A stretch of 64,000 nucleotides of DNA from positions 7,162 through 71,161 of the forward strand of contig JBDHKN010000006.1 in the NCBI GenBank assembly GCA_039586365.1, read 5' to 3'. The position numbers and the translations under genes were made by a program. Source of the DNA: Gemmatimonadota bacterium. Lineage in GTDB: Bacteria > Gemmatimonadota > Gemmatimonadetes > Gemmatimonadales > GWC2-71-9. Numbering within the stretch: position 1 is the first letter of the stretch; each line of letters opens with the position of its first letter. The notes beneath the pieces were generated by a model. It was not told the DNA's origin. It did no database searches and worked only from the letters and a program-made list of their open reading frames with translations. Positions 9,736-63,271 of the stretch are shown here, in pieces.

Positions 9736-9736
9736 T

Positions 9737-10913: not shown

Positions 10914-10943
10914 GCGCTCTACCCGCGGAAGGTGGGTTGCACA

Positions 10944-32037: not shown

Positions 32038-32322
32038 ATGGCAGACACACGTCGAACCTGCCCCCACTGCGGATCCCACCTCAAGAAGTGGTTGGTTCCG
32101 GCTGAGGCGAGCTGGAGCGAGGAGTTCTTCTTTGTCTGTTTCAATGACGACTGCTCCTACTATAAGGACGGCTGGCGCTGGATGAAAGAGAAGTACAACC
32201 AAGAAGCTTCCTATCGATACATGATCAATCCAACTACCGGTGCCGCATCGATGATACCAGTGTGGTCTGACTCCGCAACTCGGGAAATGGTGGTGGAGGA
32301 TGCCGAAGGAGATGAAGCATGA
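32038..32322 (+). CDS. Small zinc-ribbon protein of unknown function (apr/qmo-embedded)
   Basis: ATG 32038, 8 nt after GAGGA, gives 94 aa: MADTRRTCPHCGSHL...FVCFNDDCSYYKDGWRWM... (CxxC ... CxxxxC) with an acidic tail. Its stop overlaps the next start (ATGA at 32319-32322). Confidence 0.6.
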   Translation: MADTRRTCPHCGSHLKKWLVPAEASWSEEFFFVCFNDDCSYYKDGWRWMKEKYNQEASYRYMINPTTGAASMIPVWSDSATREMVVEDAEGDEA

Positions 32323-36739: not shown

Positions 36740-36844
36740 ATGTCCGAGGCCCTATTGTTGAAACCGGACCGGAAGTTCGTCGAGGCGATCGTCGCATCAG
36801 GTGGTGACGGATCTGGGCTCAGTGGGGTCTCAGAGACCGTCTAA
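36740..36844 (+). pseudogene. qmoC: 34-codon ORF encoding only the conserved QmoC N-terminus (remnant or leader of split qmoC)
   Basis: MSEALLLKPDRKFVEAIVASGGDG... follows the QmoC N-terminal pattern (xPDxxFVxxxxxxGGD) but then runs out of frame to a TAA that overlaps the next ATG (TAATG at 36842-36846). RBS AGGAG/GAGGA upstream. Confidence 0.5.
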
Positions 36845-46702: not shown

Positions 46703-47779
46703 ATGGCAACCGAGAGAATAACTGATATCGGGCCTCCGCATTACGAAAAATTCCTACCACCCGTGATAAAGCAAAACTACGGGAAGTGGAAATACCACGA
46801 GATCCTCAGGCCCGGCGTGATGGTTCACGTGGCCGAATCCGGCGACAAGCTCTTCACGGTGCGTGCGGCCTCACCACGGCTGCTCGGCATCAAGAAGATC
46901 CGCGAGTTCGCGGATCTGGCGGACAAGTATTGTGGTGGGCACCTCCGCTTCACTAGCCGCAACAACGTCGAATTCCTGCTTACGGACGATTCGAAGATCA
47001 ACGATCTCATCGCCGACCTGAAGAAATTGGGACATCCGGTGGGCGGCATAGGCAACGCGATCTCCAACATCGTTCACACGCAGGGATGGGTACACTGCCA
47101 CTCAGCTGCGACGGATGCATCCGGTGTTGTGAAAGCGGTGATGGACGATCTGTGTGGGTACTTCACTGGCGATATCGAACTGCCAGGCAAGCTGCGGGTC
47201 GCCCTTGCGTGCTGTCTCAATATGTGTGGTGCGGTGCACTGTTCGGACATCGCGATCCTAGGTATACACCGCAGGCCGCCAAGAATCCAAGCTGGTCTGA
47301 ATAAGGTATGCGAAATCCCCAACGTGGTGGCTTCCTGTCCCACGGCAGCAATCCGGCCGGCAACAGTTGACGGTGCTCCCACGGTAGAGATAGATGAAGA
47401 GAACTGCATGTTCTGCGCGAACTGTTTCTCGGTCTGCCCGGCACTACCAATGGCTGACGCGCTCAACGACGGTGTATCCATCTGGGTCGGGGGGAAAGTC
47501 TCGAACGCCCGCAAGGAACCAACCTTCTCCAAGCTGGCTATTCCGTTCTTGCCCAACAATCCGCCGCGGTGGCCGGAGGTGACTGAGGCTGTGCGGAACA
47601 TAGTGGAAGTATGGGTCAAGAACGCCCGCAAGTTCGAGCGGATGGGTGAGTTCATCGAGCGTATCGGCTGGCCCCGTTTCTTCAAGATGACGGGCATTGA
47701 GTTCGCTAAAGAGCATATTGACGATTACAAATACGCGGGCCTTTCGTACAAACGGTCTGCACAGCTCAGACACAACTAG
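46703..47779 (+). CDS. dsrB: Dissimilatory sulfite reductase beta subunit
   Basis: [73 protein letters not shown], and a ferredoxin insert [12 protein letters not shown]. Confidence 0.97.
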
Positions 47780-47789
47780 GAGGTGTACG

Positions 47790-48035
47790 GTGGCCGTCAC
47801 GCCCGAAGAAGTAGCGGACGCCATGTACGAGTTGGTCAAGGAGTATCAGGGCAAGAAGAAGCTCAAAGCCGGTGACTTGACCAAGGCGATGATCCAGAAG
47901 TATGGCGAAGGCGAAGTGGACAAGAAGCTGTGCAAGGCCGCCATCCGGACTCTGATGGATTCGGGAAGGTGTGTCTACACGTACTTCGGCGGCAGCTTCA
48001 TAGAACTCCCGCCCGAGGAAGGCGTTGAGAGGTAG
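47790..48035 (+). CDS. dsrD: DsrD-like small winged-helix protein
   Basis: GTG 47790, 6 nt after AGGAGG, gives 81 aa. Lys-rich centre (QGKKKLKAGDLTK) and a C-terminal ...AIRTLMDSGRCVYTYFGGSFIEL resembling the DsrD ...ILTALV...YWSSGSTTMY pattern. Located directly after dsrB. Confidence 0.7.
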   Translation: MAVTPEEVADAMYELVKEYQGKKKLKAGDLTKAMIQKYGEGEVDKKLCKAAIRTLMDSGRCVYTYFGGSFIELPPEEGVER

Positions 48036-48147: not shown

Positions 48148-49824
48148 ATGGCTATGAAGAAGGTCAAGAAAAAGAAGAAGTCTTTCGGTTCGAGGGGCGG
48201 CGCCTCGCGTGACCAATCGCCACTGCGACCCAAACACGTGGAGAAGAAGCCCCCATGTAGGGATACATGTCCGAGCGGCAACGATATTCGCAAGTTTCTG
48301 ACGACGCTCGCTCATGCTGAGCGGCTAGGAAAGACGGCGGAGCAAGCACTCCAAGAAGCTTGGGAGGTCTACACGGACACTAGTCCGTTTCCGTCGGTGT
48401 GTGGCCGGGTATGTCCGGCTCCATGTGAAACCGGATGCAACCGGAAGGACCTCGATGGTGCGGTGAGTATCAATAAGGTCGAACGGGCCATCGGCGACTT
48501 CGGTCTGGCGAGGGGTCTCAAGCTGAAGGCCCTCTCTGATGAGAAGAAACCGCAGAAGATAGCCGTCGTAGGCGCGGGTCCCAGTGGCCTTTCCTGTGCC
48601 TACCAGCTGGCTCGGCGCGGATATGGCGTAACCGTCTTCGAGTCCACGGAGAAGACTGGCGGCATGTTGCGGTGGGGCATCCCCGGGTATCGGCTACCCG
48701 AATCGGTACTCGACGGAGAGATCCAGAAGATCCTCGACCTGGGAGTGGAACTCAAGTGCGGCGTGAAGGTGGGCAAGGACATCACCGTTGATGAGCTGAA
48801 GCAGTCATACGATGCCGTATACGTCGCGCTCGGCGCCCAGCAGGGAGTCACTCTGGGCGTTGAAGGTGAGGATGCTCCCAACGTGTTCTCCGGAGTGGAT
48901 TTCCTCAGCCGTTTCCACCACGGTGAAAAGCTGGACCTGGGCAAGGATGTGGTGGTAATCATCGTCGGTGGAGGTGACACCGCCATCGACGCGGCGCGGA
49001 TCTGCAAACGGCTGGGCGCCAATGTAACGATCCTATACCGCCGAACCCGCAAGGAGATGCCGGCGATCGATGAGGAAGTCGATGAGGCGATCAAAGAAGG
49101 CATCACAATCGAGTTTCTGGCCGCACCAATAGGTTTCCGCAAAGAGGGCGACCTCGTCGTAGCGATGCGAGCTATCCGCATGGAGTTGGGTGAGCCGGAC
49201 TCGTCAGGTCGTCGTCGACCGGTTCCCATCGAGGGTTCGGAGTTCGAGATACCCGCCAGCGCAGTCATCTCTGCGGTGAGTCAGGCACCCGATTTCGGCG
49301 GCTTCGAGGATCTCATCGAAGGCAAGGATTGGATCAAGGTCGACAACCAGGGGGCAACCAAGGTGGCAGGAATATGGGCTGGTGGCGACGTGACAGCCCT
49401 GGATCTAGTCACGACTGCCGTAGGTCACGGTCGGCGCGCAGCCGAGGCGATCGAACGCAAATTCCTGGGCAGGCAATTCGAAGAAGACAGGATGACGGTG
49501 ATCAGAAGTGATCGTATGCTGTTGGATCACTACGACAAGATAGACCGTCAAGAACCTGCAGCCCTGGATGTTGGCGAGCGTTTGACCTCGATCGAAACGG
49601 AAGTCAACTTGGGTCTAACCGATGACCAAGTGCTGACTGAAGCGCGGCGCTGCATGAGCTGCGGATACTGCATCGATTGCGAGAAGTGCTGGATGTACTG
49701 TCAGGACCAGGCGATTGACAAGCCGCTGCAGAAGGGATTGCTGTATCCGTTCAAGATGCAGAACTGCACAGGCTGCAGTAAGTGTGCGGAAATATGCCCT
49801 TGTGGCTTCATAGAGATGCACTGA
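48148..49824 (+). CDS. dsrL: DsrL-type NAD(P)H:acceptor oxidoreductase (GltD-like flavoprotein with a C-terminal 2x[4Fe-4S] ferredoxin domain)
   Basis: 558 aa. GRVCPAPCETGCNR, IAVVGAGPSGLSCAYQLARRGYGVTVFE, IVGGGDTAIDAAR, and a C-terminal CMSCGYCIDCEKCWMYCQ...CTGCSKCAEICPCG. N-terminus MAMKKVKKKKKS. Confidence 0.85.
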   Translation: MAMKKVKKKKKSFGSRGGASRDQSPLRPKHVEKKPPCRDTCPSGNDIRKFLTTLAHAERLGKTAEQALQEAWEVYTDTSPFPSVCGRVCPAPCETGCNRKDLDGAVSINKVERAIGDFGLARGLKLKALSDEKKPQKIAVVGAGPSGLSCAYQLARRGYGVTVFESTEKTGGMLRWGIPGYRLPESVLDGEIQKILDLGVELKCGVKVGKDITVDELKQSYDAVYVALGAQQGVTLGVEGEDAPNVFSGVDFLSRFHHGEKLDLGKDVVVIIVGGGDTAIDAARICKRLGANVTILYRRTRKEMPAIDEEVDEAIKEGITIEFLAAPIGFRKEGDLVVAMRAIRMELGEPDSSGRRRPVPIEGSEFEIPASAVISAVSQAPDFGGFEDLIEGKDWIKVDNQGATKVAGIWAGGDVTALDLVTTAVGHGRRAAEAIERKFLGRQFEEDRMTVIRSDRMLLDHYDKIDRQEPAALDVGERLTSIETEVNLGLTDDQVLTEARRCMSCGYCIDCEKCWMYCQDQAIDKPLQKGLLYPFKMQNCTGCSKCAEICPCGFIEMH

Positions 49825-49828
49825 CCTT

Positions 49829-51238
49829 GTGAGCACACCGCGAGTACTGATCGCAGGGCTACGCGGAGGCAGCGGCAAGACGGTAATATCTCTGGGACTC
49901 GTGGCAACCTGGCGCAAGCAAGGTTGTCACGTTTCGCCCTTCAAGAAGGGACCAGACTACATCGATGCAGCCTGGCTATCGGCTGCGGCAGGCAAACCCT
50001 GCCGGAACCTCGATCTCTTCCTCATGACCCCAGATACGGTCCTGCGCTCGTTCGCAGCTGCGGCCGGGCCGGCCGACGTGGCTGTCATAGAGGGCAATCG
50101 CGGGTTGTTCGACGGCATGGACGCCCGGGGCAGCTACAGCACGGCCGAGTTGGCCAAGTTGCTGAAGAGCCCGGTGTTGCTCGCTGTCGATTGCACAAAG
50201 GCAACGCGTACCATCGCGGCAATGGTCCTAGGTTGTCAGAGACTCGATCCCAGCGTCTCGCTTCGCGGTGTCATTCTGAACAATGTGGCCGGTCCTCGGC
50301 ACGAGTCGGTGCTGCGTGAAGCAATGGCTGAGATCAGCGGGCTGCCCGTGGTGGGTGCGCTGGGCCGAATCCCCGGAGAGCTCTTTCCAGAACGGCACCT
50401 TGGGCTCGTGCCACCCCAAGAGCACGAGCAATTGTCTCCAGCGATACAACAGGCCGCCAGTGCGGTCGAACAGCAGTTGGACTTGGCCGCCATCTGGGAC
50501 ATTGCGCGCCAAGCTCCAGAGCTCGACCCCCACGACTCGAATCCGACTGCCACAGGTGACGAGGGGCGGAATGCCGTCAGGATCGGTGTGTTCCGCGACG
50601 CTGCATTTCAGTTCTACTATCCCGAGAACCTCGAGGCCCTGGTTCGGCAGGGGGCGATCTTGCTGGAGGTTTCTCCGCTCCACGATACTGCGCTACCGGA
50701 CGTGGATGCCCTGTACCTCGGGGGAGGATTTCCGGAGACAGCAGCACCGGCGTTGGCAGACAACAGGCAATTCCTGGACTCGCTACGTGACTCAGTCAAC
50801 AGTGGCTTGCCGGTATACGCAGAGTGCGGGGGAGCGGTCTTTCTGGGGGAGAAGCTCCTCTACAATCATAGAGAATACCCGATGGCGGGCATACTACCAG
50901 TCGTTTTCTGCTTCGAGGCAAAACCGCGGGGGCACGGCTACGCCGTACTCGAAACCGTGGAGAACAACCCGTTTTTCACAGTCGGGGAATGTCTCCAAGG
51001 GCATGAGTTCCACTACACCCACATGCAGTCGTCTGCGGTGGAGGATCTGAAGTTCGCATTCCGGGTCCGTCGCGGCTATGGATTCGATGGCCAAAGGGAC
51101 GGCTTGTGTTATCGCAATGTGCTCGCGTCCTACACTCACCTGCATGCGTTGGGGACGGAGAGTTGGGCTCCGTCCGTGGTTCGGGCCGCCACCCGGTTCA
51201 AGTCGCGGAGCGCGAGCCATACTGGCGTTGGCCTCTAG
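49829..51238 (+). CDS. dsrN: DsrN (cobyrinate a,c-diamide synthase homologue, putative siroheme amidase)
   Basis: 469 aa. IAGLRGGSGKTVISLGL P-loop and a glutamine-amidotransferase half with ECGG. Located after dsrL in the dsr cluster. Confidence 0.85.
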   Translation: MSTPRVLIAGLRGGSGKTVISLGLVATWRKQGCHVSPFKKGPDYIDAAWLSAAAGKPCRNLDLFLMTPDTVLRSFAAAAGPADVAVIEGNRGLFDGMDARGSYSTAELAKLLKSPVLLAVDCTKATRTIAAMVLGCQRLDPSVSLRGVILNNVAGPRHESVLREAMAEISGLPVVGALGRIPGELFPERHLGLVPPQEHEQLSPAIQQAASAVEQQLDLAAIWDIARQAPELDPHDSNPTATGDEGRNAVRIGVFRDAAFQFYYPENLEALVRQGAILLEVSPLHDTALPDVDALYLGGGFPETAAPALADNRQFLDSLRDSVNSGLPVYAECGGAVFLGEKLLYNHREYPMAGILPVVFCFEAKPRGHGYAVLETVENNPFFTVGECLQGHEFHYTHMQSSAVEDLKFAFRVRRGYGFDGQRDGLCYRNVLASYTHLHALGTESWAPSVVRAATRFKSRSASHTGVGL

Positions 51239-51250: not shown

Positions 51251-51904
51251 GTGCCGATCATCACAATCTCGCGGGGGACGTTGAGTGGCGGACAAGCGGT
51301 GGCTGAGTGTCTCGCTGGTAGACTTGGGTACCCGTGTGTCGGTCGCGAGATCGTTCAAGAAGCGGCCCGAAAGCTGGGTGTATCTGAGGAGACCCTGAGT
51401 GGGAAGTTCGAGACCCCCCCTGGACGATGGCATCGGCTGACTAACGAGCGTAGGCTGTACCTTCACGCGGTTCAGGCTGCCCTAGCGGACCAGTGTGTGA
51501 CTGGGGAGCTGGTTTACCACGGTCTGGCTGGGCAGCTGCTGCTGCGGGGCCAGCCCGGAGTGCTGCGAGCCCGGCTTATTGCACCATTGGATATGCGAGT
51601 GCGTGCCTTGACGGAAGCACACCATAGAATGAGCCCCAAGGCTGCGGAGGAATTCATCGAGAGCGTGGATGAAGACCGCAGGCGTTGGGTCAGACTGATG
51701 TACGGAGCCGACGTCGAGGACCCATCTCTGTACGATCTAACGATCAACCTACAGTCCATTTCCACTGAGACAGCGTGTACGAGCATTGCGGAAGCGGTTG
51801 CACAGCCACAGTACAAGATAACGGACGAAGTAAGGGCGAAGCTGGAGGCGTTCGCGGCCCAATGCCACGAACAACTGCAGGCGGCTGCGTCGCAGCGCTC
51901 ATGA
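51251..51904 (+). CDS. Cytidylate-kinase-like family protein (PF13189-type, degenerate P-loop), paralog 1
   Basis: 217 aa, GTG start. IITISRGTLSGGQAVAECLAGRLGY has the family's SR.xGSGG pattern in place of GxxGxGKS/T. Function unknown. Confidence 0.65.
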   Translation: MPIITISRGTLSGGQAVAECLAGRLGYPCVGREIVQEAARKLGVSEETLSGKFETPPGRWHRLTNERRLYLHAVQAALADQCVTGELVYHGLAGQLLLRGQPGVLRARLIAPLDMRVRALTEAHHRMSPKAAEEFIESVDEDRRRWVRLMYGADVEDPSLYDLTINLQSISTETACTSIAEAVAQPQYKITDEVRAKLEAFAAQCHEQLQAAASQRS

Positions 51905-51993
51905 GGCGGATGAACTGTTCATGCCGCTTGCAGGCACAAAGTTGGCTAGCAGGGCGAACTAGCGCCGTCGCCGACGTTAAAGAGGGCTGAAGA

Positions 51994-52812
51994 GTGGCGA
52001 TCATTACCATCAGTCGAGGAAGCAAGAGTGGCGGGCAGGAAATGGCGGAATGTCTGGCCGCGCAACTGCAGTATCGCATCGTTGGACGAGAGATTGTACA
52101 GGAAGCGGCTACCAGGCTCGACGTTTCAGAGGAGGCCTTGAGCCACCAGATGGAGCACACACCCAAGCTGTGGGATAGGCATGCTGCGACGCGGCGGCTA
52201 TATGTGGCGGCCGTGCAAGCGGCCCTCGCCGAGTATGTGGCCGAGGGAGATCTGGTGTACCATGGCTTGGCGGGACAACTACTCCTGAGGGGCCTACCGG
52301 CTGTGCTGCGGGTGCGGCTCATCGCACCGAGAGAGAGGCGGGTCCGAACGCTGGTGGAGACGCGTCAGATGGATGAGGCCTCGGCCGAAGAGTTCATTCA
52401 GCATGTCGATGGAGCACGTGCTCGCTGGGTCAAAATGATGTACGGCGAAAACATCGAGGACCCGGCACTTTATGACATGGTGGTAAACCTGGAGACCATG
52501 TCTGTGCCCGGTGCCTGTGCTGCACTCGCGACTGTGGCAAAGCGGCCGGACTTTGCGGTTACTGGTGAGGTAAAGGCGTGTCTACGGGACTTTCGCTTGG
52601 CGTCCAACGTCAAAGTCGCGCTAGCGAGAGCACGTGAGACACGGCCTCACATTCTGGACGTGTGGGTCAGAGGGGGCGTCGTCGAGATATCCGGCAGCGT
52701 TCCCGTCCTCAAAACAGGCCGGATGGGGGATCGTATCAGCGAGGTAGCACGTTCTGTCCCCGGCGTTGAGGAAGTCCGTATGAAGCTGCAGTGGTACGAC
52801 CCGTATCCTTAG
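51994..52812 (+). CDS. Cytidylate-kinase-like family protein, paralog 2, with a C-terminal BON-like domain
   Basis: 272 aa. IITISRGSKSGGQEMAECLAAQLQY, with about half of positions identical to paralog 1 by eye over ~190 aa. The extra C-terminus VKVALARA...VWVRGGVVEISGSVP...VARSVPGVEEVRMKL resembles a BON domain. Confidence 0.65.
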   Translation: MAIITISRGSKSGGQEMAECLAAQLQYRIVGREIVQEAATRLDVSEEALSHQMEHTPKLWDRHAATRRLYVAAVQAALAEYVAEGDLVYHGLAGQLLLRGLPAVLRVRLIAPRERRVRTLVETRQMDEASAEEFIQHVDGARARWVKMMYGENIEDPALYDMVVNLETMSVPGACAALATVAKRPDFAVTGEVKACLRDFRLASNVKVALARARETRPHILDVWVRGGVVEISGSVPVLKTGRMGDRISEVARSVPGVEEVRMKLQWYDPYP

Positions 52813-52851: not shown

Positions 52852-53922
52852 GTGTCCGACTCTACTGAACAGCCTATGCCTACTATCGCGAGCACACCTG
52901 CCACAACAGGGCAGGTGCTCATAGATCCGGGAACAGCGGAAGGTCCTCAGCGGTTGCGCGTACTTCCTGCGGTGATCCGCCTAGCGGTGTTGCTCTTTGT
53001 CATCATGTTGCTCAACCCGACGGAGGTGCACGCGTGCCAGGAAGCAGCAGTGGCGGCCGACACCAGTATGACCTCATGGTGGGTGTGGCCGCTTGTTCTC
53101 TTCCTAATCACGTTTGTCATGGGGATCCTGGCTGCTCTAGGTGGTGTTGGAGGGGGAGTGCTCTTCGTGCCAATTGTCAGCGGTTTCTTCCCATTTCACC
53201 TCGACTTCGTTCGCGGCTGCGGACTGTTAGTGGCGCTGAGCGGTGCACTTGCCGCGGGTCCGGGTTTCTTGAAGATGAACTTGGCCAGTCTGCGCTTGGC
53301 CATGCCTGTGGCGTTGATTGCATCCACTTGTGCCATTATCGGCGCCATGATCGGGCTCGCGCTCCCGACGAACGTTGTGCAGACGGCGCTAGGTGCCACC
53401 ATCCTGGGGATAGTCGCCCTAATGATGGCAGCGAAGAAGTCAGAGTTCCCCGAAGTCGCCGAAGCGGACCGCCTCTCTTCAGCGCTCAAGATCTATGGTG
53501 TGTATACTGAGGCCAGTCTGGGCCGGGCGATAGACTGGAAAGTGCACCGGACGGTATACGGTCTACTTCTATTCATCATCATCGGTGTCATGGCAGGCAT
53601 GTTTGGGCTCGGCGCGGGTTGGGCCAACGTTCCGGTTCTGAACCTGGTTATGGGTGCCCCGCTCAAGATCAGCGTGGCCACCAGCAAGTTTCTCCTCTCC
53701 ATAACGGATACGTCGGCGGCTTGGATCTATGTTAACAATGGTGCTGTGATCCCGATGATGGTTGTCCCCTCGCTGGTCGGCATCATGCTGGGCTCTTTCA
53801 TCGGCGTGCGAATTTTGCGGGTCGCCAAGCCGGCGTTTGTTCGCAAGATGGTGATCGGACTGTTGCTTTTCGCCGGTGCCAAAGCGATCACCAAAGGACT
53901 AGACCTCCCGTTCATCGTCTAG
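52852..53922 (+). CDS. TauE/SafE (TSUP, DUF81) family anion permease
   Basis: 356 aa. LAALGGVGGGVLFVPI and a repeated 4-TM-type architecture typical of TSUP sulfite/sulfonate exporters. Has a long N-terminal extension. Confidence 0.8.
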   Translation: MSDSTEQPMPTIASTPATTGQVLIDPGTAEGPQRLRVLPAVIRLAVLLFVIMLLNPTEVHACQEAAVAADTSMTSWWVWPLVLFLITFVMGILAALGGVGGGVLFVPIVSGFFPFHLDFVRGCGLLVALSGALAAGPGFLKMNLASLRLAMPVALIASTCAIIGAMIGLALPTNVVQTALGATILGIVALMMAAKKSEFPEVAEADRLSSALKIYGVYTEASLGRAIDWKVHRTVYGLLLFIIIGVMAGMFGLGAGWANVPVLNLVMGAPLKISVATSKFLLSITDTSAAWIYVNNGAVIPMMVVPSLVGIMLGSFIGVRILRVAKPAFVRKMVIGLLLFAGAKAITKGLDLPFIV

Positions 53923-53941: not shown

Positions 53942-54388
53942 ATGTCTGAGGACGCAATAGAGTCGAGACCCAACGAAGAACAGTTGCTGTACGCCAAGAT
54001 CCTGGAGATTGGCATGTTCGTTGGGCTGGGGCTTCTGCTCGTAACGTTCTTCCTCTATGTCTCTGGCATAGTCGCGCCGGCGGTGCCGGTTGAGGAATTG
54101 CCCAAGTATTGGGAAATGAGCGTCCACGATTATTTGGAAGCCACAAACCACGACTATGTACACCGGGAACACGCCATCACGGGTTGGTCTTGGCTCTCTG
54201 TACTTGGAAAGGGAGACTACCTCAATTTTCTGGGGATCGCCCTACTATCTGGAGTGACGGTCGTCTGCTATTTGGGGATTGTGCCGACGCTAATCAAGAA
54301 GAGGGATCTTGTCTTCGCTGCCATCTCCTTGATGGAAGTCGTGATCCTGACGCTCGCGGCGAGCGGCATCCTCAGTGTCGGGCACTAG
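53942..54388 (+). CDS. Small membrane protein, DUF1634-like partner of TSUP permeases
   Basis: 148 aa with 3-4 TM helices, 19 nt downstream of the TauE/SafE gene. The family call is from memory of the DUF81-DUF1634 pairing and is tentative. Confidence 0.45.
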   Translation: MSEDAIESRPNEEQLLYAKILEIGMFVGLGLLLVTFFLYVSGIVAPAVPVEELPKYWEMSVHDYLEATNHDYVHREHAITGWSWLSVLGKGDYLNFLGIALLSGVTVVCYLGIVPTLIKKRDLVFAAISLMEVVILTLAASGILSVGH

Positions 54389-54437
54389 CACTTGGGTTTC
54401 TGAAGGCGGCAGTGTGACTACTGATTCTAGCGGAACC

Positions 54438-54911
54438 ATGCGGTTCCTTCCGATAGGACTTGACGTCCGTGGCAGGGTTTGCCTGGTTGTTGGCGGTGGG
54501 AGTGTAGGGACTCGCAAGGCAGTGACACTTGCTCAGGCGGGTGCAGCCGTAACGGTAGTCTCGCCTGTCGTCACTGCTGAACTTGCCGAGCAGATACGCG
54601 CTGGCCGCATCAATTGGGTGGAGGGAAAGTTCCGAGACGGGCATCTGTCTGGTGTCTTCCTCGCGGTTGCTGCTACGGATGACGATGCCTTGAATGCCAT
54701 AGTCGTCAGGGTCGCGGGGGAGCGTGGTGCCCTGGTCTGCGATGCCTCGTCAGCCGAGCGCTCTCAAGTGATCTTCGGCGCTGTGCTGGAGAGTGATGAA
54801 GCCACCGTTGCCGTCTTCACGGATGGCCGAAATCCAGCACAGGCTAGGCGGACACGCGACCAGATTGCAGGTTTCATTGCCGCGGAACGCAAGGTTGGGC
54901 CTCAGTCCTGA
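54438..54911 (+). CDS. sirC: Precorrin-2 dehydrogenase / sirohydrochlorin ferrochelatase (SirC/CysG N-terminal type)
   Basis: MRFLPIGLDVRGRVCLVVGGGSVGTRKAVTLAQAGAAVTVVSP, a Rossmann motif characteristic of siroheme synthase N-domains. Alternative starts are 54375 and 54414. Confidence 0.8.
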   Translation: MRFLPIGLDVRGRVCLVVGGGSVGTRKAVTLAQAGAAVTVVSPVVTAELAEQIRAGRINWVEGKFRDGHLSGVFLAVAATDDDALNAIVVRVAGERGALVCDASSAERSQVIFGAVLESDEATVAVFTDGRNPAQARRTRDQIAGFIAAERKVGPQS

Positions 54912-55097: not shown

Positions 55098-57344
55098 ATG
55101 TCCACGTTCACCACAGACAGCTCGGCAACATCACCCATGCACCAGGGGCGTAGCTCGCTAGTGCCGGGGCGGCGGGGAGTGTTGTTGCTCAATCTGGGAA
55201 TGCCTGGCCGAAGTGACCCTTCTTCCGTGCGCCAGTTCCTCTTGCAGTTTCTTGACGATCCTCTCGTCATCGGCTCGCTCCCGGAACTCAGGTGGCTCCG
55301 ACGGGGTCTGCGCAGTTGGATGCTCCGCTTGCGGGCAGCGCGCCTGGTGGATTCCTGCCGCACATACAGGGAGGATAGCGGGTCTCAGCCGAACATCATT
55401 GCGGAACAGGCTGCTGCGCTGGGTGCTGTTCTTCCAGAGCACTGGCGGGTATTCACGGGTACACGCTATGGGGAACCATCGATCTCTGCAGTGCTGAAGC
55501 AGATGCAGGACGAGGGTATCGAGCGAATCGTGGCAGTACCGCTGTATCCGCAATTCGACCAGGCGACCACAGGCACGATCATGCGCGAACTGTACCGTGT
55601 CGTGGGTGAAACGGCACGAAGTATGAGCCTTGCCACTCGTGCTGCGTGGCACGACGACAGCGGCTACGTGAGTGCCCAAGCGAGATTGATTGCGGAATGG
55701 GCACAGTCCCATGATCTGTGGCCGGATGACTCGCACTTGCTCTTCACGGCCTACGGTCCACCCGGTTCCGGCGTGCAGCGCGAAGATACGTACGCGCCAC
55801 AGATGAGGAGAACGGTCGATCTGGTGGCTCAACGGTTAGGCTGGTCTGCGGATCTAGTGTCATTAGCCTTCCAGGGACGGTTCGGTATGGAGCCGGGCCC
55901 CGCATGTAGGCCCATCGCCGGCGACGAGCTGGAGCGACTTGCTCGTTTGGGTGTCAAGAAGGTGCTCGTCTGCCACCTCACCTTTGCCGAGCAGGGTGTG
56001 GGTGCCGTGCGGCAGATAGATGGGCAGTCCCAGAAGTTGTTCGCAGCAAGCGGAGGTCGTCTCCACAATTGCCCGACTCTCTACACACAGAGACCGTTTA
56101 TCTCCGCGTTGCGAAGCTTGGTAATAGGAGGTCCTAGGCCGGCTTCGGGCCGAGGGGCTAAACCTCTTCTGGTGCCCAGACTCGACACGGGTCTGACGGA
56201 CGACGATCCGAAGGCTCTGGTGATGATCGGGACGTCGCTGGCAAGGCGGCTGCGGTCCGGGCGCGGTCCGCATCTGAAGCACAACCACCCTGGCGTGTTC
56301 GCCAAGGTACGCAAGTCACGGAAGACCTTGCTGGGATTCCTGGATTGGGTCCGTGAGGAGGGGATTGTCAAGGAGGCGTTCGTCTGGAACACGTGCCAGC
56401 GGCTCGAGTTCTACGGATGGCTCGCGGATCCGGATGACTCCGTCGACCGCGAGTGGGTCGTCGCGACAGTGCGGAGCAGACTGTTCGAGACCGAACCAGA
56501 AGACCTCCATGTCAACGTGTTGTTTGGCGTCAACGCCTGGCATCACCTAATGCGCACAGCGTCTGGATTGAATAGCGCGCTGCCAGGGGACACGGACGTG
56601 GTGGCACAACTGCAAACGTCCTGCCAGATAGCCGAACGTGCGAGGGTTGCGGGCCCAATCGCAGCTCGACTGGTAAGGAGCGCAGTGGAGCTGACCCACA
56701 AAGTACGCGCTGAAACTGCGTGGGGCCAGTTCAGCTCTGGGTACTGCCTCGCTGCTCTGTCCCACGTTCGTGCAGTGAGCGGCGTCGATCTAGACGCGTG
56801 TCGCCACCTCGTCATTGGTGGCTCAGCCACGTCACGTTCAGTGCTGTCCACACTGTCTCAGGAGTTCGCTGTCCCCCAACATAGAATGACGTTGGCTTAT
56901 CGAGACCACCATGGTCAGATGAAGCTATTGCGGGCGGCTCTCGGCCACGGCAAACGCCAGCGCGTGCATTCGTATTCAGAGGAAAGTGTCCTGCGCGCGA
57001 TCGCTGACGCAGACTTTGTGTTTTTCGGTATCGATCACCCACAACCGGTATTGGACGCTGAGGTGATCGGTGGTTTGCGGGATTTCACGAAGCGACCTCT
57101 GACGATCGTCGATTTCAATAGCTATGGTTCAATGCGCTACTCGAGTATCCCTGATGGTGTGAGAGTGTGGACCGAAGCAGAGTTGGATCGAGCAGTTGCG
57201 GCGTATGCCGACCTGATGTGCTCTCGGGCCGAGTTCTCCGCGGCCGTAGAAGCCATGGAAACGTGGATAGAAGACCGCCTACCGGTGTCCGATGTGGATG
57301 CTGACTCCAAGACTGAAATCAGTGCAGCCAAGAGTACTATATGA
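55098..57344 (+). CDS. Fusion protein: ferrochelatase-like N-domain plus glutamyl-tRNA reductase (HemA)-like C-domain
   Basis: Residues ~25-330 carry HemH-family blocks (LLLNLGMPGRSDPSSVRQFLLQFLDDPLVI, VAVPLYPQFDQATTG). Residues ~340-748 carry HemA blocks (FVWNTCQRLEFY vs STCNRTEIY; HLMRTASGLNSALPGDTDVVAQ vs [22 protein letters not shown]). It is a single uninterrupted 748-codon ORF. Confidence 0.7.
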   Translation: MSTFTTDSSATSPMHQGRSSLVPGRRGVLLLNLGMPGRSDPSSVRQFLLQFLDDPLVIGSLPELRWLRRGLRSWMLRLRAARLVDSCRTYREDSGSQPNIIAEQAAALGAVLPEHWRVFTGTRYGEPSISAVLKQMQDEGIERIVAVPLYPQFDQATTGTIMRELYRVVGETARSMSLATRAAWHDDSGYVSAQARLIAEWAQSHDLWPDDSHLLFTAYGPPGSGVQREDTYAPQMRRTVDLVAQRLGWSADLVSLAFQGRFGMEPGPACRPIAGDELERLARLGVKKVLVCHLTFAEQGVGAVRQIDGQSQKLFAASGGRLHNCPTLYTQRPFISALRSLVIGGPRPASGRGAKPLLVPRLDTGLTDDDPKALVMIGTSLARRLRSGRGPHLKHNHPGVFAKVRKSRKTLLGFLDWVREEGIVKEAFVWNTCQRLEFYGWLADPDDSVDREWVVATVRSRLFETEPEDLHVNVLFGVNAWHHLMRTASGLNSALPGDTDVVAQLQTSCQIAERARVAGPIAARLVRSAVELTHKVRAETAWGQFSSGYCLAALSHVRAVSGVDLDACRHLVIGGSATSRSVLSTLSQEFAVPQHRMTLAYRDHHGQMKLLRAALGHGKRQRVHSYSEESVLRAIADADFVFFGIDHPQPVLDAEVIGGLRDFTKRPLTIVDFNSYGSMRYSSIPDGVRVWTEAELDRAVAAYADLMCSRAEFSAAVEAMETWIEDRLPVSDVDADSKTEISAAKSTI

Positions 57345-60025: not shown

Positions 60026-60241
60026 CCGTAGTAATCCTAGATTGTCGCCGGCCCTACTCCCGGGAGATACCCCACGAAGCATACCGTGTCTATCTGCGAC
60101 GTCAATTTCAGTATAGTGCAACCTGTGTGACTGTTGTCTGATTGCTCTTTCATCACGGAGTGCTATACTGAAAAACCAGTGTGGGTTGGAGAACCGAGGT
60201 GCATGGATTGCGGGAGACACGTACTGGAAGGAGGATGTCGC

Positions 60242-61585
60242 ATGAGCGACCGTGAGGGCATAGCAGCTCTTTGGACCAAGGAAGACTGGTGGGCGGTCTG
60301 GCTCGGGTTGGGGATCATCGCCTGTGCGATCGTCTTCTTTGTGGCAGGAGGCACGCTCAGACCATTGGCCGTCAGCCCTCCGAGGGATTGGACGGTATTT
60401 TCAAGGGTAACATCACATTTTGCTGAGAACTGGATCTGGTACGTTCTGCTCTACCTGGTGTTCGGCGGCGTATTCACGTTGAGTACGTCTGTCATGGGCC
60501 ACAAGGCGAAGCAATACGTACCCGGCTTCACGCTGATATTCCTGGTCTCAGTTTTCATCCTAGTAGTCAGCCAGAGTCAGTTCTTCCACTACTACAGTCT
60601 GGAGGCGCCGTTGGTGGCGCTCATCCTGGGCCTTTTCGTCGGGAACTTCGCCAGGCTGCCCGATTGGCTCGACAGTTCTCTCAGGACCGAGTACTACATC
60701 AAGACAGGCATTGTTTTGCTGGGTGCAACCTTGCCGCTGACCTTGATCGTCACCGCTGGGCCGATCGCCTTTCTTCAAGCTACTATTGTATCGCTCTGCA
60801 CATGGCTGGCAATGTTTTTCTTCGCGACCCGCGTGTTCAAACTCGACAAGCGCTTCGGAGCGGTACTTGGAGCCGGTGGTGCTGTGTGTGGAGTCTCTGC
60901 ATCCATCGCGGTTGGTGGAGCGGTGAAGGCAGACAAGGAACACGTGGCAATCAGCATATCGATTGTATCTCTGTGGGCACTCGTCATGATCTTCTTCCTG
61001 CCACTGGCGAGCAAGGCTCTGGGCCTTCATCCGGGCGTGGCGGGAGCCTGGATAGGAACCAGCGAGTTTGCTGACGCCGCGGGCTACGCGGCCGCGCAGA
61101 CTATTGCTTCGAACTCCGGCAACGAAGCTGCCATCCAGACCTTCACTCTCATGAAAGTGATCGGACGGGATATCTGGATCGGGATCTGGGCGTTCGTGCT
61201 GTCGATCGTCTCTGTGGCCCTGTGGGAGCGAGGGTCCAACACGGGGGGCTCGACGGTGGGAGTAGGGGTCATATGGTCACGATTCCCGAAGTTCGTTATC
61301 GGGTTCTTCCTCGCCTCAGTAATCATGAGCATCCTGGTGGCGAGTTCCTCGGCCGACTACGCAGCCGACATTACACCGAGGCTCATTACGCCCATCAAGA
61401 CACTGCGGACTTGGACGTTTGTCTTCACGTTCCTTTGCATCGGTCTCACCACACGATTTCGTGATCTGGCCAAGTTTGGAATGCCACCCTTCTGGGCATT
61501 TACTGTCGGTGTTCTCGTGAATGTTCCACTGGGCTACTTCTTGTCCACAGTGGTTTTCGGTGACTACTGGATGGCTGTGCAGTGA
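60242..61585 (+). CDS. YeiH/UPF0324-type putative sulfate-exporter family membrane transporter
   Basis: ATG 60242, 7 nt after GGAGG. ~447 aa, 10 or more TM helices, with the KTGIVLLGATL motif typical of the family. Confidence 0.68.
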   Translation: MSDREGIAALWTKEDWWAVWLGLGIIACAIVFFVAGGTLRPLAVSPPRDWTVFSRVTSHFAENWIWYVLLYLVFGGVFTLSTSVMGHKAKQYVPGFTLIFLVSVFILVVSQSQFFHYYSLEAPLVALILGLFVGNFARLPDWLDSSLRTEYYIKTGIVLLGATLPLTLIVTAGPIAFLQATIVSLCTWLAMFFFATRVFKLDKRFGAVLGAGGAVCGVSASIAVGGAVKADKEHVAISISIVSLWALVMIFFLPLASKALGLHPGVAGAWIGTSEFADAAGYAAAQTIASNSGNEAAIQTFTLMKVIGRDIWIGIWAFVLSIVSVALWERGSNTGGSTVGVGVIWSRFPKFVIGFFLASVIMSILVASSSADYAADITPRLITPIKTLRTWTFVFTFLCIGLTTRFRDLAKFGMPPFWAFTVGVLVNVPLGYFLSTVVFGDYWMAVQ

Positions 61586-63269: not shown

Positions 63270-63271
63270 GC

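What the first reader, a model, noticed from the sequence alone, without database searches (positions are those of the whole stretch)
51251..52812. Tandem P-loop-degenerate cytidylate-kinase-like paralogs (one with a BON domain) embedded between dsrN and the TauE permease
Two adjacent genes encode proteins of the cytidylate-kinase-like-2 type. Their N-termini are IITISRGTLSGGQ and IITISRGSKSGGQ, in which the Walker lysine/serine of true kinases is replaced. About half of their positions are identical by eye. The second gains a ~80-aa C-terminal BON-like domain, which is usually associated with membranes or osmotic-shock proteins.

They have no assigned function and, to my knowledge, are not part of any described dsr gene set. 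They nevertheless sit inside the co-directional cluster, 12 nt after dsrN and 39 nt before the anion permease. Candidate roles are nucleotide (APS/AMP/PAPS) sensing, regulation of the transporter, or siroheme-amide handling. All three are speculative.
Basis: partly seen in the sequence, partly recalled or inferred. Interest (0 to 1): 0.65.

Follow-up and report, generated by a model that had tools for sequence, protein, structure and literature searches.

The report
Kinase-like protein pair partnered with TauE permease
Two neighbouring genes in a Gemmatimonadota sulfate-reduction island encode kinase-shaped proteins that lack the kinase catalytic lysine, and across many phyla their relatives sit next to a TauE-type anion permease, so they most likely act as sensor or regulatory partners of a sulfur-oxyanion transporter rather than as enzymes of the dsr pathway.

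Summary
ORFs 51251-51904 (217 aa) and 51994-52812 (272 aa) are 57% identical paralogs of Pfam PF13189 (Cytidylate_kin2). The second carries a C-terminal BON domain. Both give confident NMP-kinase-fold models.

The "degenerate" P-loop (R-G-x-x-S-G-G, Gly in place of the Walker Lys) is a trait of the whole family, not a local decay. The BON domain is ancestral: the shorter paralog is a Gemmatimonadota-specific duplicate that lost it.

The main result is that dsrN is not the conserved neighbour. The conserved neighbour is the downstream TauE/TSUP permease, together with a small membrane protein and a short SirC-like gene.
- TauE lies directly downstream in 20 of 26 Gemmatimonadota loci.
- In other phyla it lies within 1.5 kb in 26 of 54 loci.
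- Several of these loci have no dsr genes within 10 kb.

Relatives are fused to receiver (REC) or CBS domains or to two transmembrane helices, and also sit beside SulP and DASS sulfate transporters.

Best model (inferred, about 0.45): non-catalytic, membrane-proximal ligand sensors that regulate a sulfur-oxyanion permease. I found no published description. Moderately interesting.

The parts
49829..51238 (+). dsrN (siroheme/cobyrinic-acid a,c-diamide synthase family). Upstream neighbour in this lineage only, not a conserved partner.
   Evidence: CbiA + GATase_3; NF002204 at 440 bits. Directly upstream of the pair in 10 of 26 Gemmatimonadota-type loci, plus L004 and the window.
51251..51904 (+). 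CK2a: 217-aa PF13189 protein with an NMP-kinase-like core and one C-terminal helix, and no BON sheet.
   Evidence: PF13189 at 2.1e-36. AF2 model pLDDT 87, pTM 0.83, ending after helix 192-214. Orthologues 60-94% identical in Gemmatimonadota. Clade bootstrap 99.
51269..51295 (+). CK2a modified phosphate-binding loop (S7-R-G-T-L-S-G-G-Q15), with no Walker Lys/Thr.
   Evidence: Sequence. G13 and G14 are invariant and S7, R8, G9 at least 90% conserved in 40 orthologues. Register against E. coli Cmk.
51905..51993 (.). 89-nt spacer between the paralogs, with an AGAGGG ribosome-binding site before the GTG.
   Evidence: Sequence. No Rfam family and no terminator-like site there. Spacing in orthologous loci is 3-107 nt.
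51994..52812 (+). CK2b: 272-aa PF13189 + BON protein.
   Evidence: PF13189 at 2.9e-36 and BON at 26.5 bits. AF2 model pLDDT 88.8, pTM 0.86. Foldseek best hits 3hdt and 3fdi, then CoaE, CMP and shikimate kinases. Orthologues almost all 272 aa.
52012..52038 (+). CK2b modified phosphate-binding loop (S7-R-G-S-K-S-G-G-Q15). R8 aligns with Cmk G12 and G14 with the Walker Lys18.
   Evidence: hhalign and hmmsearch give the same register. R8, G9, G13, G14 invariant in 43 orthologues.
52564..52797 (+). BON domain of CK2b (residues about 191-268, alpha-beta-beta-alpha-beta). Cytoplasmic by inference, since there is no signal peptide.
   Evidence: Profile hits to OsmY at 6e-9 and DolP/YraP at 3e-4. Secondary structure H191-212, E221-226, E229-237, H244-253, E260-268.
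52852..53922 (+). TauE/TSUP-family permease, the conserved genomic partner of the CK2 genes.
   Evidence: PF01925 at 1.2e-34. Same-strand downstream within 1.5 kb in 20 of 26 Gemmatimonadota-type and 20 of 54 other-phylum loci. Top Pfam family among immediate neighbours. Also seen in L086, L087, L089, L091, L092.
53942..54388 (+). M148: small predicted membrane protein that always follows this TauE.
   Evidence: No Pfam hit. Orthologues weakly match PF27327 AF_1016. Follows TauE in essentially all Gemmatimonadota loci.
54375..54911 (+). Short SirC/CysG-N-like NAD-binding protein. Overlaps M148 by 14 nt and is the last member of the conserved five-gene module.
   Evidence: PF13241 at 8e-26. TIGR01470 at 103 bits, cutoff 62. 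Follows TauE-M148 even where no other siroheme genes are nearby.

Best explanation
CK2a and CK2b are cytoplasmic proteins with an NMP-kinase fold, belonging to the uncharacterised PF13189 family. Their phosphate-binding loop has an invariant Arg and a Gly-rich turn but no Walker Lys/Thr, so they are most likely ligand binders rather than Mg-ATP phosphotransferases.

Proposed mechanism:
1. The two paralogs work together, probably as a heteromer. CK2b supplies a BON domain that holds the complex at the inner face of the membrane.
2. There they act as accessory or regulatory subunits of the adjacent TauE/TSUP anion permease (with its small membrane partner M148).
3. They tune import or export of a sulfur oxyanion (sulfate or sulfite) for the sat-apr-dsr pathway. 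The input signal would be a bound anionic or nucleotide ligand and, in relatives, phosphorelay signals.

What is shown: the fold, the loop chemistry, the BON domain, the duplication history, and the cross-phylum gene linkage to TauE and to signalling domains.

What is inferred: heteromer formation, membrane docking, ligand binding without catalysis, and control of the permease.
For: - Fold and loop: confident NMP-kinase-fold models, nearest to 3hdt/3fdi and then to CMP, shikimate and dephospho-CoA kinases. The Walker Lys position is an invariant Gly and the first P-loop Gly is an invariant Arg. Both proteins score far below the (d)CMP-kinase equivalog cutoff (29-36 against 102 bits).
- Linkage to TauE within the phylum: TauE lies same-strand downstream within 1.5 kb in 20 of 26 Gemmatimonadota-type loci.
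- Linkage in other phyla: TauE lies within 1.5 kb in 26 of 54 loci and within 10 kb in 39 of 54. Its density is 0.13 per kb in the 0-2 kb bin against 0.04-0.06 per kb further out. TauE is the joint top Pfam family among 99 immediate neighbours.
- Independent metagenome contigs: L089, L091 and L092 each show CK2 followed directly by TauE.
- Independence from dsr: L086 carries two CK2:TauE units in tandem with no dsr gene within 10 kb.
- Base rate: TSUP genes number about 7-9 per sulfate-reducer genome (PMC5840216), which I estimate gives a few percent chance expectation per 20 kb.
- Membrane theme: the BON domain, and a subfamily that carries two C-terminal predicted TM helices in addition.
- Signalling theme: fusions CK2-BON-CBS and CK2-REC. 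CBS and REC genes are adjacent to single-copy homologues. In L087 one CK2-REC precedes TauE and another lies next to SulP+STAS beside a dCache histidine kinase. In Gemmatimonadota the module travels with an HK / REC / CBS / Na_sulph_symp block.
- Obligate pairing: CK2a and CK2b are adjacent in every Gemmatimonadota-type locus where both positions are visible, except L082, which holds a single divergent copy. Both keep the same invariant residues.
Against: - There is no direct evidence of any protein-protein contact, ligand binding or effect on transport. Everything functional rests on gene neighbourhood and domain logic.
- Roughly half of the non-Gemmatimonadota homologues have no TauE within 1.5 kb. 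Some sit beside other things instead: REC pairs only, PPDK-like genes, MFS or CLC transporters.
- Several arginines (R32, R116, R142) remain conserved, so an unconventional catalytic activity cannot be excluded.
- The sampled loci are the 80 closest relatives out of more than 572, and related genomes share synteny by descent, so the counts overstate the number of independent events.
- The substrate and direction of this TauE are unknown.
- I could not examine model coordinates to test whether the conserved residues form one pocket.
Confidence: 0.45

Rival explanations
1. They are active small-molecule or nucleotide kinases (or another kind of phosphotransferase or hydrolase) that use an unconventional Arg-containing P-loop. 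In this view they act on a metabolite of the sulfate-reduction or siroheme pathway such as AMP, APS or a tetrapyrrole intermediate.
For: - The kinase fold is complete, with LID-like and NMP-like helices.
- There is remote but significant similarity to archaeal (d)CMP kinase TIGR02173, E = 6e-9 and 1e-6.
- R8, R116 (100% of 97 representatives), D139 and R142 are strongly conserved, as expected of a phosphate-handling site.
Against: - The Walker Lys is an invariant Gly, and the Ser/Thr that would ligate Mg2+ is absent across the family.
- Scores are far below the CMP-kinase equivalog cutoff.
- Fusion to REC, CBS and BON domains or TM helices, and adjacency to permeases, is typical of regulatory modules rather than metabolic kinases.
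- The neighbours vary in pathway (dsr, apr, sat, or none) while the permease stays constant.
Confidence: 0.15
2. They are dedicated dsr accessory proteins that work with DsrN or siroheme. Possible jobs would be handling siroheme amide or delivering cofactor to DsrAB.
For: - There is a 12-nt gap after dsrN, on the same strand.
- dsrN is the upstream neighbour in 10 of 26 Gemmatimonadota-type loci, plus L004 and the window.
- A SirC-like gene is always in the module, and CysG-N or TP_methylase genes recur next to CK2-BON in Acidobacteriota (L055, L065, L076, L081).
Against: - The pair occurs without dsrN or dsrAB nearby in L001/L002, L009, L013, L016, L021, L035, L044 and L086.
- In other phyla the homologue sits next to sat, aprBA, a CLC channel or REC genes rather than dsrN.
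- Classical dsr gene sets and synteny surveys do not list such a gene (PMC10504309).
- No feature of the proteins suggests tetrapyrrole binding.
Confidence: 0.07
3. They are output or adaptor modules of a two-component phosphorelay. Their target would not be TauE itself but, for example, other transporters (DASS, SulP), enzymes or the stress response. TauE would then simply be a frequent co-regulated gene.
For: - CK2-REC fusions exist.
- REC domains tie with TauE as the most frequent immediate neighbour.
- REC-REC-CK2 arrays occur in 'delta proteobacterium' MAGs with TauE 4-5 kb away.
- A CK2-REC lies next to SulP and a histidine kinase in L087.
- The HK/REC/CBS/DASS block travels with the module in Gemmatimonadota.
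Against: - In the window itself no HK or REC gene turned up, either in the tblastn screen of the whole window or among the ORFs annotated with Pfam, yet the CK2-TauE adjacency is kept.
- TauE is the tightest and most widespread neighbour, usually within 0.3 kb on the same strand.
- This rival overlaps with the best explanation rather than excluding it.
Confidence: 0.2
4. They are general BON-type stress or osmoprotection proteins, and their position next to TauE and dsr reflects inherited synteny without a shared function.
For: - BON domains are classically linked to osmotic and envelope stress, as in OsmY and DolP (PMC7806268).
- Many of the sampled loci come from related MAGs.
Against: - The linkage to TauE recurs in different gene orders and in phyla as distant as Chloroflexota, Acidobacteriota, Thermodesulfobacteriota and Gemmatimonadota.
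- It is duplicated within one locus (L086).
- It holds for three different CK2 architectures: CK2-BON, CK2-BON with two TM helices, and CK2-REC.
- The proteins lack a signal peptide, unlike OsmY and DolP.
Confidence: 0.08

Closest known systems
PF13189 Cytidylate_kin2 family, including the structural-genomics proteins 3hdt (Clostridium symbiosum 'putative kinase') and 3fdi (Eubacterium ventriosum 'uncharacterized protein')
   Same: Both window proteins pass the Pfam cutoff by about 100 bits. Their best structural matches are 3hdt and 3fdi. They share the Arg + GSGG loop.
   Different: 3hdt and 3fdi have no BON domain and are only 16-18% identical. Neither has a known function, so membership gives no mechanism. 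The tandem heterologous pair and the TauE linkage have not been described for this family.
Bona fide cytidylate (CMP) kinase: Cmk, TIGR02173/TIGR00017, for example E. coli Cmk b0910
   Same: Same P-loop NMP-kinase fold. There is remote sequence similarity to the archaeal CMP kinase model. The beta1/P-loop/alpha1 segments are colinear.
   Different: The Walker A sequence GxxGxGK[ST] is replaced by RGxxSGG, with Lys18 becoming Gly. Scores of 29-36 bits fall well short of the 102-bit cutoff. The proteins carry an extra BON domain and sit in a transporter and signalling context. They are not CMP kinases.
BON-domain proteins OsmY, DolP/YraP and Kbp
   Same: The CK2b C-terminus matches OsmY and DolP BON domains at profile level and has the alpha-beta-beta-alpha-beta topology. 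DolP's BON domain binds anionic phospholipid for localisation (PMC7806268), which offers a precedent for membrane docking.
   Different: OsmY and DolP are periplasmic dual-BON proteins with a signal peptide or lipobox. CK2b has a single BON fused to a cytoplasmic kinase-like core and no signal peptide. In topology it is closest to cytoplasmic Kbp (BON + LysM, a K+ sensor), which I cite from my own knowledge and from the titles.
Cytoplasmic nucleotide-sensing regulatory modules of transporters (CBS pairs on CLC, MgtE and OpuA; STAS on SulP; RCK/KTN on K+ channels), and the APS-kinase-like allosteric PAPS-binding domain of Penicillium chrysogenum ATP sulfurylase
   Same: The functional logic is the same: a soluble ligand-binding domain encoded with, or fused to, a membrane transporter or sulfur-pathway enzyme, which modulates it. 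Relatives are fused to CBS domains and lie next to CLC, SulP+STAS and DASS genes. The P. chrysogenum case, recalled from my own knowledge and not tested here, is a precedent for a catalytically dead P-loop-kinase fold serving as a sulfonucleotide sensor.
   Different: The fold family differs (PF13189). The module is a separate polypeptide, or a pair of them, rather than a fused domain. No interaction or ligand has been shown. This is a likeness in how it might work, not family membership.
TSUP/TauE permeases with proposed sulfur-oxyanion roles: Cupriavidus TauE sulfite exporter and Corynebacterium glutamicum CysZ sulfate importer
   Same: The partner gene at 52852-53922 is a PF01925 member inside a sat-apr-qmo-dsr island. 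TSUP proteins are candidate sulfate transporters of sulfate reducers (PMC5840216).
   Different: No accessory kinase-like subunit has been reported for the characterised TSUP members. The substrate and direction of this one are unknown.

Membership tests
Pfam PF13189 Cytidylate_kin2 | HMM score above the gathering threshold (28 bits) over the full-length domain | tested here: met
   126.2 and 125.7 bits, covering profile positions 1-174/175 of 176.
Pfam PF13189 Cytidylate_kin2 | P-loop NMP-kinase fold resembling the solved family members | tested here: met
   AF2 models with pLDDT 87-89. Foldseek top hits 3hdt and 3fdi, E = 3e-9 to 4e-7, TM (target-normalised) 0.77-0.84.
Pfam PF13189 Cytidylate_kin2 | Family-typical N-terminal loop I-(T/A)-I-x-R-x-x-(G/S)-S-G-G in place of Walker A | tested here: met
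   ITISRGTLSGG and ITISRGSKSGG in the window, against 3fdi IAIGREFGSGG and 3hdt ITIEREYGSGG. R8, G9 and G14 are 83-87% conserved in 97 representatives.
Cytidylate (CMP) kinase, EC 2.7.4.25 (TIGR02173 / Cmk) | Walker A motif GxxGxGK[ST] with a catalytic Lys | tested here: not met
   Cmk K18 aligns with the invariant G14, and Cmk G12 with R8 (invariance).
Cytidylate (CMP) kinase, EC 2.7.4.25 (TIGR02173 / Cmk) | Score above the NCBIfam equivalog cutoff (102.1 bits) | tested here: not met
   36.2 and 28.8 bits.
Cytidylate (CMP) kinase, EC 2.7.4.25 (TIGR02173 / Cmk) | CMP phosphorylation activity | not testable with these tools
   Needs an enzyme assay.
BON domain (PF04972) | Sequence match to the BON profile | tested here: met
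   The single sequence scores 26.5 bits, just under the cutoff of 27. The orthologue profile hits OsmY at 6e-9 and DolP at 3e-4. Many orthologues are pre-annotated PF04972.
BON domain (PF04972) | alpha-beta-beta-alpha-beta fold | tested here: met
   H191-212, E221-226, E229-237, H244-253, E260-268, with pLDDT about 90-98.
OsmY/DolP-type periplasmic BON proteins | Signal peptide or lipobox and a dual-BON architecture | tested here: not met
   The N-terminus is beta-strand 1 of the kinase core (MAIITISRG), and there is only one BON domain.
Canonical dsr gene set (obligate component of Dsr-dependent metabolism) | Consistent co-occurrence and co-localisation with dsrAB/dsrN wherever the gene occurs | tested here: not met
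   Adjacent to dsrN in 10 of 26 Gemmatimonadota-type loci (plus L004 and the window). Absent from the 10-kb neighbourhood in L001, L009, L013, L016, L021, L035, L044 and L086, and in most other-phylum loci.
Canonical dsr gene set (obligate component of Dsr-dependent metabolism) | Enrichment near dissimilatory sulfur genes above chance | tested here: met
   apr/qmo/sat/dsr lie within 10 kb in about 10 of 54 other-phylum loci (Acidobacteriota, Chloroflexota, Methylomirabilales and others) and in at least 11 of 26 Gemmatimonadota-type loci. My rough estimate of chance expectation is 1-2%; this is an estimate, not a computed control.
Transporter-associated regulatory subunit (a functional class, not a sequence family) | Conserved adjacency or fusion with membrane transporter genes across lineages | tested here: met
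   TauE within 1.5 kb in 46 of 80 loci. Also next to SulP, DASS and CLC genes. 2-TM-anchored variants exist.
Transporter-associated regulatory subunit (a functional class, not a sequence family) | Physical interaction with the transporter and modulation of its activity | not testable with these tools
   Needs multimer modelling, pull-downs and transport assays.

The most novel reading that the evidence does not exclude
The CK2a/CK2b pair is a heteromeric pseudokinase sensor that binds an adenylated sulfur or energy-status nucleotide (APS, AMP or ADP) or a sulfur oxyanion. Docked to the membrane by the BON domain, and in relatives under phosphorelay control, it gates a TSUP permease. That permease would be the dedicated sulfate importer or sulfite valve of non-classical sulfate reducers. 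This would be the first case of an NMP-kinase-fold pseudoenzyme regulating a membrane transporter, and it would give a function to the widespread PF13189-BON family.
Probability: 0.2. Interest if true: 0.75.

Novelty: new variant of a known kind. Interest (0 to 1): 0.55.

Why it matters
Which proteins move sulfate in and sulfite out of dissimilatory sulfate reducers is still unsettled. TSUP/TauE proteins are abundant candidates with no way to tell the relevant copies apart (PMC5840216).

A conserved, cross-phylum pairing of one TSUP subgroup with a kinase-like BON protein marks out specific permeases. That subgroup sits inside sat-apr-qmo-dsr islands and is tied to REC, CBS and histidine-kinase signalling genes. 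It suggests those permeases are post-translationally controlled.

The finding also gives a first testable functional hypothesis for PF13189+BON. This is a large family (4279 hits at E <= 1e-3 among 50%-identity cluster representatives) with two solved structures and no known function.

If the proteins prove to be plain accessory or stress proteins, the result still corrects the idea that they are dsr-specific.

Tried and rejected
- Local P-loop decay: rejected. The loop is a family-wide trait.
- BON gained by CK2b: rejected in favour of loss in CK2a. Outgroup homologues carry BON, and the NJ tree gives CK2a 99, CK2b 97 and the two together 72 bootstrap.
- Conserved cysteines (C20, C175/176, C204/205) as a redox or metal site: not pursued. 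They are present in only 24-40% of the wider family, and the window's CK2b has Ser at 204.
- Promoter and terminator scan of 45-60.5 kb: counts no higher than in shuffles, so uninformative about co-transcription.
- Rfam scan of 45-60 kb: nothing, so the 89-nt spacer holds no known RNA.
- First greedy ORF caller for neighbourhoods: it lost the target gene in 15 loci to antisense ORFs in high-GC DNA. I replaced it with a GC3-filtered caller and then a six-frame HMM scan that needs no gene calls.
- Global hhalign against E. coli Cmk beyond the P-loop: failed. Only the N-terminal register is tool-supported; the loss of Cmk R131/D132 equivalents is my reading, not a result.
- Exact-sequence contig lookup for the window's CK2b: not on record.
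- The TSUP family paper PMC3917603: not held.
- Literature searches for PF13189, 'cytidylate kinase-like' and 'cytidylate kinase' with dsrAB: no functional study found.
- Two context lookups (P0268, P0310) returned contigs too short to add much.
Full report
**Observation.** CK2a is 51251-51904 (+, GTG start, 217 aa) and CK2b is 51994-52812 (+, GTG start, 272 aa). The gap after the dsrN stop (51238) is 12 nt and contains an AGGAGG that overlaps the stop codon. The gap to the TauE ORF (52852) is 39 nt. The two paralogs are separated by 89 nt. Both match Pfam PF13189 Cytidylate_kin2 over the full domain, at 126 bits against a cutoff of 28. They are 57% identical over 201 residues, E = 1e-77.

The BON call on CK2b is marginal for the single sequence, at 26.5 bits against a cutoff of 27. 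It is secure at profile level: an alignment of 43 orthologues hits OsmY at 6e-9 and DolP/YraP at 3e-4. The AlphaFold model also shows a clean alpha-beta-beta-alpha-beta unit at residues 191-268. Hundreds of orthologues at 55-94% identity, nearly all exactly 272 aa for CK2b, show these are real genes under constraint. The antisense ORFs across the region are the usual high-GC artefacts.

**Context in the window.** The genes lie in a co-directional sulfur island:
- aprBA, qmoAB and sat;
- dsrMKJOP, dsrA, dsrB, dsrD, dsrL and dsrN;
- CK2a and CK2b;
- TauE, then a 148-aa membrane protein (M148);
- a short CysG-N/SirC-like NAD-binding protein, a ferrochelatase-GluTR fusion, CbiX and CobA-HemD.

hemL, hemC and hemB lie upstream. 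The first 24 kb of the window is housekeeping. The closest named relatives are Gemmatimonadota MAGs. The SG8_17 orthologues are 93-94% identical and annotated 'hypothetical protein'. Marine Gemmatimonadota with sat/apr/qmo/dsr clusters have been described (PMC11316326), but those descriptions do not mention these genes.

**What the proteins are.**
- *Fold.* Both give confident models: pLDDT 87-89, pTM 0.83-0.86. The fold is that of a P-loop NMP kinase. The best Foldseek matches are the two uncharacterised structural-genomics PF13189 proteins 3hdt and 3fdi, followed by dephospho-CoA, CMP and shikimate kinases.
- *P-loop.* Two independent alignments give the same register against annotated E. 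coli Cmk (L085). CK2 R8 lies opposite the first Walker glycine (G12), and CK2 G14 lies opposite the catalytic Lys18. Both alignments are statistically weak, and the register rests on the shared beta-1 strand.
- *Conservation.* R8, G9, G13 and G14 are invariant in the CK2b alignment. In the CK2a alignment G13 and G14 are invariant and R8 and G9 are at least 90% conserved. R8, G9 and G14 are 83-87% conserved across 97 diverse representatives. 3fdi and 3hdt have the same Arg + GSGG loop.
- *Consequence.* The missing Walker Lys/Thr is the signature of the whole family, not a local degeneration. Both proteins also score far below the (d)CMP kinase equivalog cutoff. They are therefore not cytidylate kinases.
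- *Other residues.* Conserved R32/E33, Y89-H90-G91, R116 (100%), D139, R142 and W145 suggest an anion or nucleotide pocket is retained. That is inference, because I could not inspect the coordinates.

**History of the pair.**
- Single-copy homologues in Acidobacteriota, 'delta proteobacteria'/Thermodesulfobacteriota, Myxococcota, Chloroflexota and Methylomirabilales already carry the BON domain and are about 270 aa long.
- An NJ tree of the kinase-like core puts CK2a (bootstrap 99) and CK2b (97) as sister clades (72), nested among these single-copy proteins.
- CK2a ends after the helix that corresponds to the first BON helix.
- The likely history is therefore a duplication in the Gemmatimonadota lineage followed by loss of the BON sheet in CK2a, not a gain in CK2b.
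- The two genes are adjacent in every Gemmatimonadota-type locus where both positions are visible, except L082, which holds a single divergent copy. Both keep the family's invariant residues. This is what one expects of partners in a heteromer (inference).

**The conserved partner is TauE, not dsrN.** I scanned one genome per GTDB species and kept the 80 best of more than 572 relatives. I then scored their neighbourhoods with the window's proteins.

Among the 26 Gemmatimonadota-type GTDB loci, the upstream gene varies:
- dsrN in 10 loci (also in L004 and the window);
- a HisKA-like protein, REC-REC and a dCache histidine kinase in L006 and L008 (a HisKA-like gene also lies upstream in L018);
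- a DsrE-like gene in L009 (adjacent, as in L001/L002) and L080 (about 3 kb away);
- unrelated genes in six loci.

The downstream TauE-M148-SirC-like trio is nearly constant. A scan that does not depend on gene calls, using an iterated TauE HMM, gives these counts:

| Group | Loci | TauE same strand, downstream, within 1.5 kb | TauE within 1.5 kb | TauE within 10 kb |
|---|---|---|---|---|
| Gemmatimonadota-type | 26 | 20 | 20 | 21 |
| Other phyla | 54 | 20 | 26 | 39 |

In other phyla, TauE density is 0.13 per kb in the first 2 kb against 0.04-0.06 per kb further out. Pfam independently ranks TauE joint first, level with receiver domains, among 99 immediate neighbours. TSUP genes number roughly 7-9 per sulfate-reducer genome (PMC5840216), which I estimate gives a chance expectation of a few percent per 20 kb.

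Further loci show the same pairing:
- The Longimicrobiales locus L086 reads Rex, CK2a, CK2b, TauE, M148, SirC-like, then a 472-aa CK2 and a second TauE, with no dsr gene within 10 kb.
- Independent metagenome contigs show CK2-BON and CK2-BON-2TM proteins each followed directly by TauE.

**Link to sulfur metabolism.** About 10 of 54 other-phylum loci have apr, qmo, sat or dsr genes within 10 kb, in differing arrangements:
- after sat in Terriglobia;
- before aprBA in Acidobacteriota and Methylomirabilales;
- between TauE-DUF1634-like and dsrN in Chloroflexi;
- after dsrMKJOP and a CLC channel in an unclassified bacterium.

In the tree, the six of these homologues that I included form a clade of their own. 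The family is therefore recurrently recruited to dissimilatory sulfur islands, but through the permease module rather than as a Dsr component.

**Link to signalling and to the membrane.**
- Relatives are fused to CBS domains (454-463 aa) or to a receiver domain (347-408 aa).
- A 480-520 aa subfamily ends in two predicted transmembrane helices.
- CBS-pair and receiver genes flank many single-copy homologues.
- In L087, one CK2-REC precedes a DVU0150-family gene and TauE. A second CK2-REC lies beside a SulP+STAS sulfate transporter, a dCache histidine kinase and two receivers.
- In several Gemmatimonadota, the CK2/TauE module travels with a block made of a dCache histidine kinase, four receiver domains, a CBS-pair protein and a Na+/sulfate-symporter-family gene. 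None of these has a DNA-binding output domain.
- This block is absent from the present window.

**Mechanism proposed.** The shown facts are:
- a kinase fold without the catalytic Lys/Thr;
- a BON domain on a protein with no signal peptide;
- an obligate tandem pair;
- tight cross-phylum adjacency to a TSUP permease;
- fusions to REC, CBS and TM segments.

Putting these together, I propose that CK2a/CK2b form a non-catalytic, membrane-proximal ligand sensor. It would serve as an accessory or regulatory subunit of the TauE permease and so tune sulfate or sulfite traffic for the sat-apr-dsr pathway. Heteromer formation, BON-mediated docking, the ligand and the control of transport are all inferred. 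I put this at about 0.45.

**Rivals.**

| Rival | Confidence | Main argument |
|---|---|---|
| Unconventional active kinase | 0.15 | Conserved arginines favour it; loop chemistry and domain context count against it |
| Phosphorelay output acting on targets other than TauE | 0.20 | Overlaps with the main model |
| General BON stress protein with inherited synteny | 0.08 | Weakened by linkage across phyla, gene orders and architectures |
| Dedicated DsrN/siroheme factor | 0.07 | Contradicted by loci without dsr |

**Comparison with what is known.** The proteins are members of PF13189, and CK2b of the PF13189+BON architecture. They fail the defining tests for CMP kinase and for OsmY/DolP-type periplasmic BON proteins. 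In how they may work, they resemble CBS, STAS or RCK regulatory modules of transporters. From my own knowledge, and untested here, they also resemble the catalytically dead APS-kinase-like PAPS-sensing domain of fungal ATP sulfurylase.

I found no paper on the function of PF13189. Its only literature appearances are in a BON-architecture survey and in incidental gene lists. Nothing links it to dsr or TSUP genes.

**Limits.**
- All functional statements rest on comparative genomics.
- The 80 loci are the closest relatives and are not phylogenetically independent.
- The chance expectations are my estimates, not computed controls.
- The NJ tree is simple.

**Verdict.** The finding is better described as a conserved kinase-like/BON plus TauE permease module that Gemmatimonadota have placed inside their dsr-siroheme operon. 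Novelty: a new variant of a known kind, namely transporter-associated sensor subunits built from an uncharacterised pseudokinase-like family. Interest: 0.55.

Noticed in passing
window 55098-57344 (+): A 748-aa fusion of a full ferrochelatase (HemH, PF00762) with a glutamyl-tRNA reductase (PF05201 N-terminal domain; TIGR01035 spans residues 403-673). It joins the last and first enzymes of haem synthesis in one protein. It is conserved downstream of the SirC-like gene in other Gemmatimonadota (L001, L004, L006, L009).
   Followed up: partly
window 53942-54388 (+): The 148-aa predicted membrane protein always follows this TauE and overlaps the next gene by 14 nt. It has no Pfam family, and orthologues match PF27327 (AF_1016) only weakly. 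In a Chloroflexi locus (L061 9355-9846) a weak DUF1634-like protein occupies the equivalent position, between TauE and CK2-BON. It may be a TSUP accessory subunit.
   Followed up: partly
window 54375-54911 (+); also L086 12299-12787, L065 about 9296-9757, L076 about 9310-9756: The CysG-N/SirC-like NAD-binding protein is short (160-178 aa, covering about 145 of the 205 model positions). It stays with TauE-M148 even where no other siroheme genes are nearby. It also sits next to CK2-BON in Acidobacteriota. There is a weak TrkA_N hit (E = 0.007). It could be a genuine precorrin-2 dehydrogenase or an NAD(H)-sensing regulatory domain of the permease module.
   Followed up: no
L001 11493-17806; L004 15554-20654; L014 14894-20816; L006 100-4850: A conserved signalling and transport block travels with the CK2/TauE module in other Gemmatimonadota but is absent from this window. 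It consists of a HisKA-like 216-aa protein, a REC-REC protein, a dCache histidine kinase, two single-domain receivers, a CBS-pair protein and a Na+/sulfate-symporter-family (DASS) gene. No DNA-binding output domain is present anywhere in the block.
   Followed up: partly
L087 7592-16635: Two CK2-receiver fusion proteins occur in one locus. One precedes a DVU0150-family small protein and TauE. The other lies beside a SulP+STAS sulfate transporter and a dCache histidine kinase. So CK2 proteins are paired with three different anion-transporter families: TSUP, SulP and DASS.
   Followed up: partly
window 60134-61585 (+) and 61650-63982 (-): Downstream of the siroheme genes lie a YeiH/PF03601 membrane protein (from my own knowledge, the putative sulfate exporter family) and, on the opposite strand, an HdrD/DsrK-like CCG protein with a DsrM-like NarI-type cytochrome b. 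This looks like a second DsrMK-like module.
   Followed up: no
window 47697-48035 and 48148-49824 (+): dsrD and dsrL occur together right after dsrAB, combining a 'reductive' marker with a gene once thought typical of sulfur oxidisers. The listed dsrD ORF starts at a TTG that overlaps dsrB by 83 nt. The true start is probably further downstream, because orthologues are about 85 aa (L004).
   Followed up: no
window 36844-37911 (+) and 32319-33209 (+): The 355-aa ORF between qmoB and sat, where qmoC would be expected, has no Pfam match at all. A 296-aa CxxCxxCC-domain ORF sits between aprA and qmoA and overlaps the listed qmoA start.
   Followed up: no
CK2a residues C20, C176, C205 (window 51308-51310, 51776-51778, 51863-51865); CK2b C20, C175: Cysteines are conserved at matching positions in both paralogs across Gemmatimonadota (C20, C175/176, C204/205). 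They are present in only 24-40% of the wider family, and the window's CK2b has Ser at 204. Many CK2b orthologues also have Cys at position 7, immediately before the invariant Arg. A possible redox or persulfide site was not examined in 3D.
   Followed up: partly
L003/L080 (CP070812.1, Gemmatimonadota chromosome) 10001-11073: In this Gemmatimonadota chromosome record the CK2b gene is called as only 141 aa, and no TauE hit follows within the locus. Many neighbouring genes also look fragmented. This is either pseudogenisation of the module or frameshift errors in the assembly.
   Followed up: no
L026, L027, L031, L034, L038 (downstream of CK2-BON and TauE): In Acidobacteriota/Thermoanaerobaculia-type and 'delta proteobacterium' loci, the CK2-BON-TauE pair is followed by a roughly 850-aa ORF. 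Four immediate neighbours of CK2-BON genes in the Pfam survey carried PPDK_N + PEP-utilizers domains (a swivelling phosphohistidine enzyme). This is another phosphotransfer component recurrently linked to the module.
   Followed up: no
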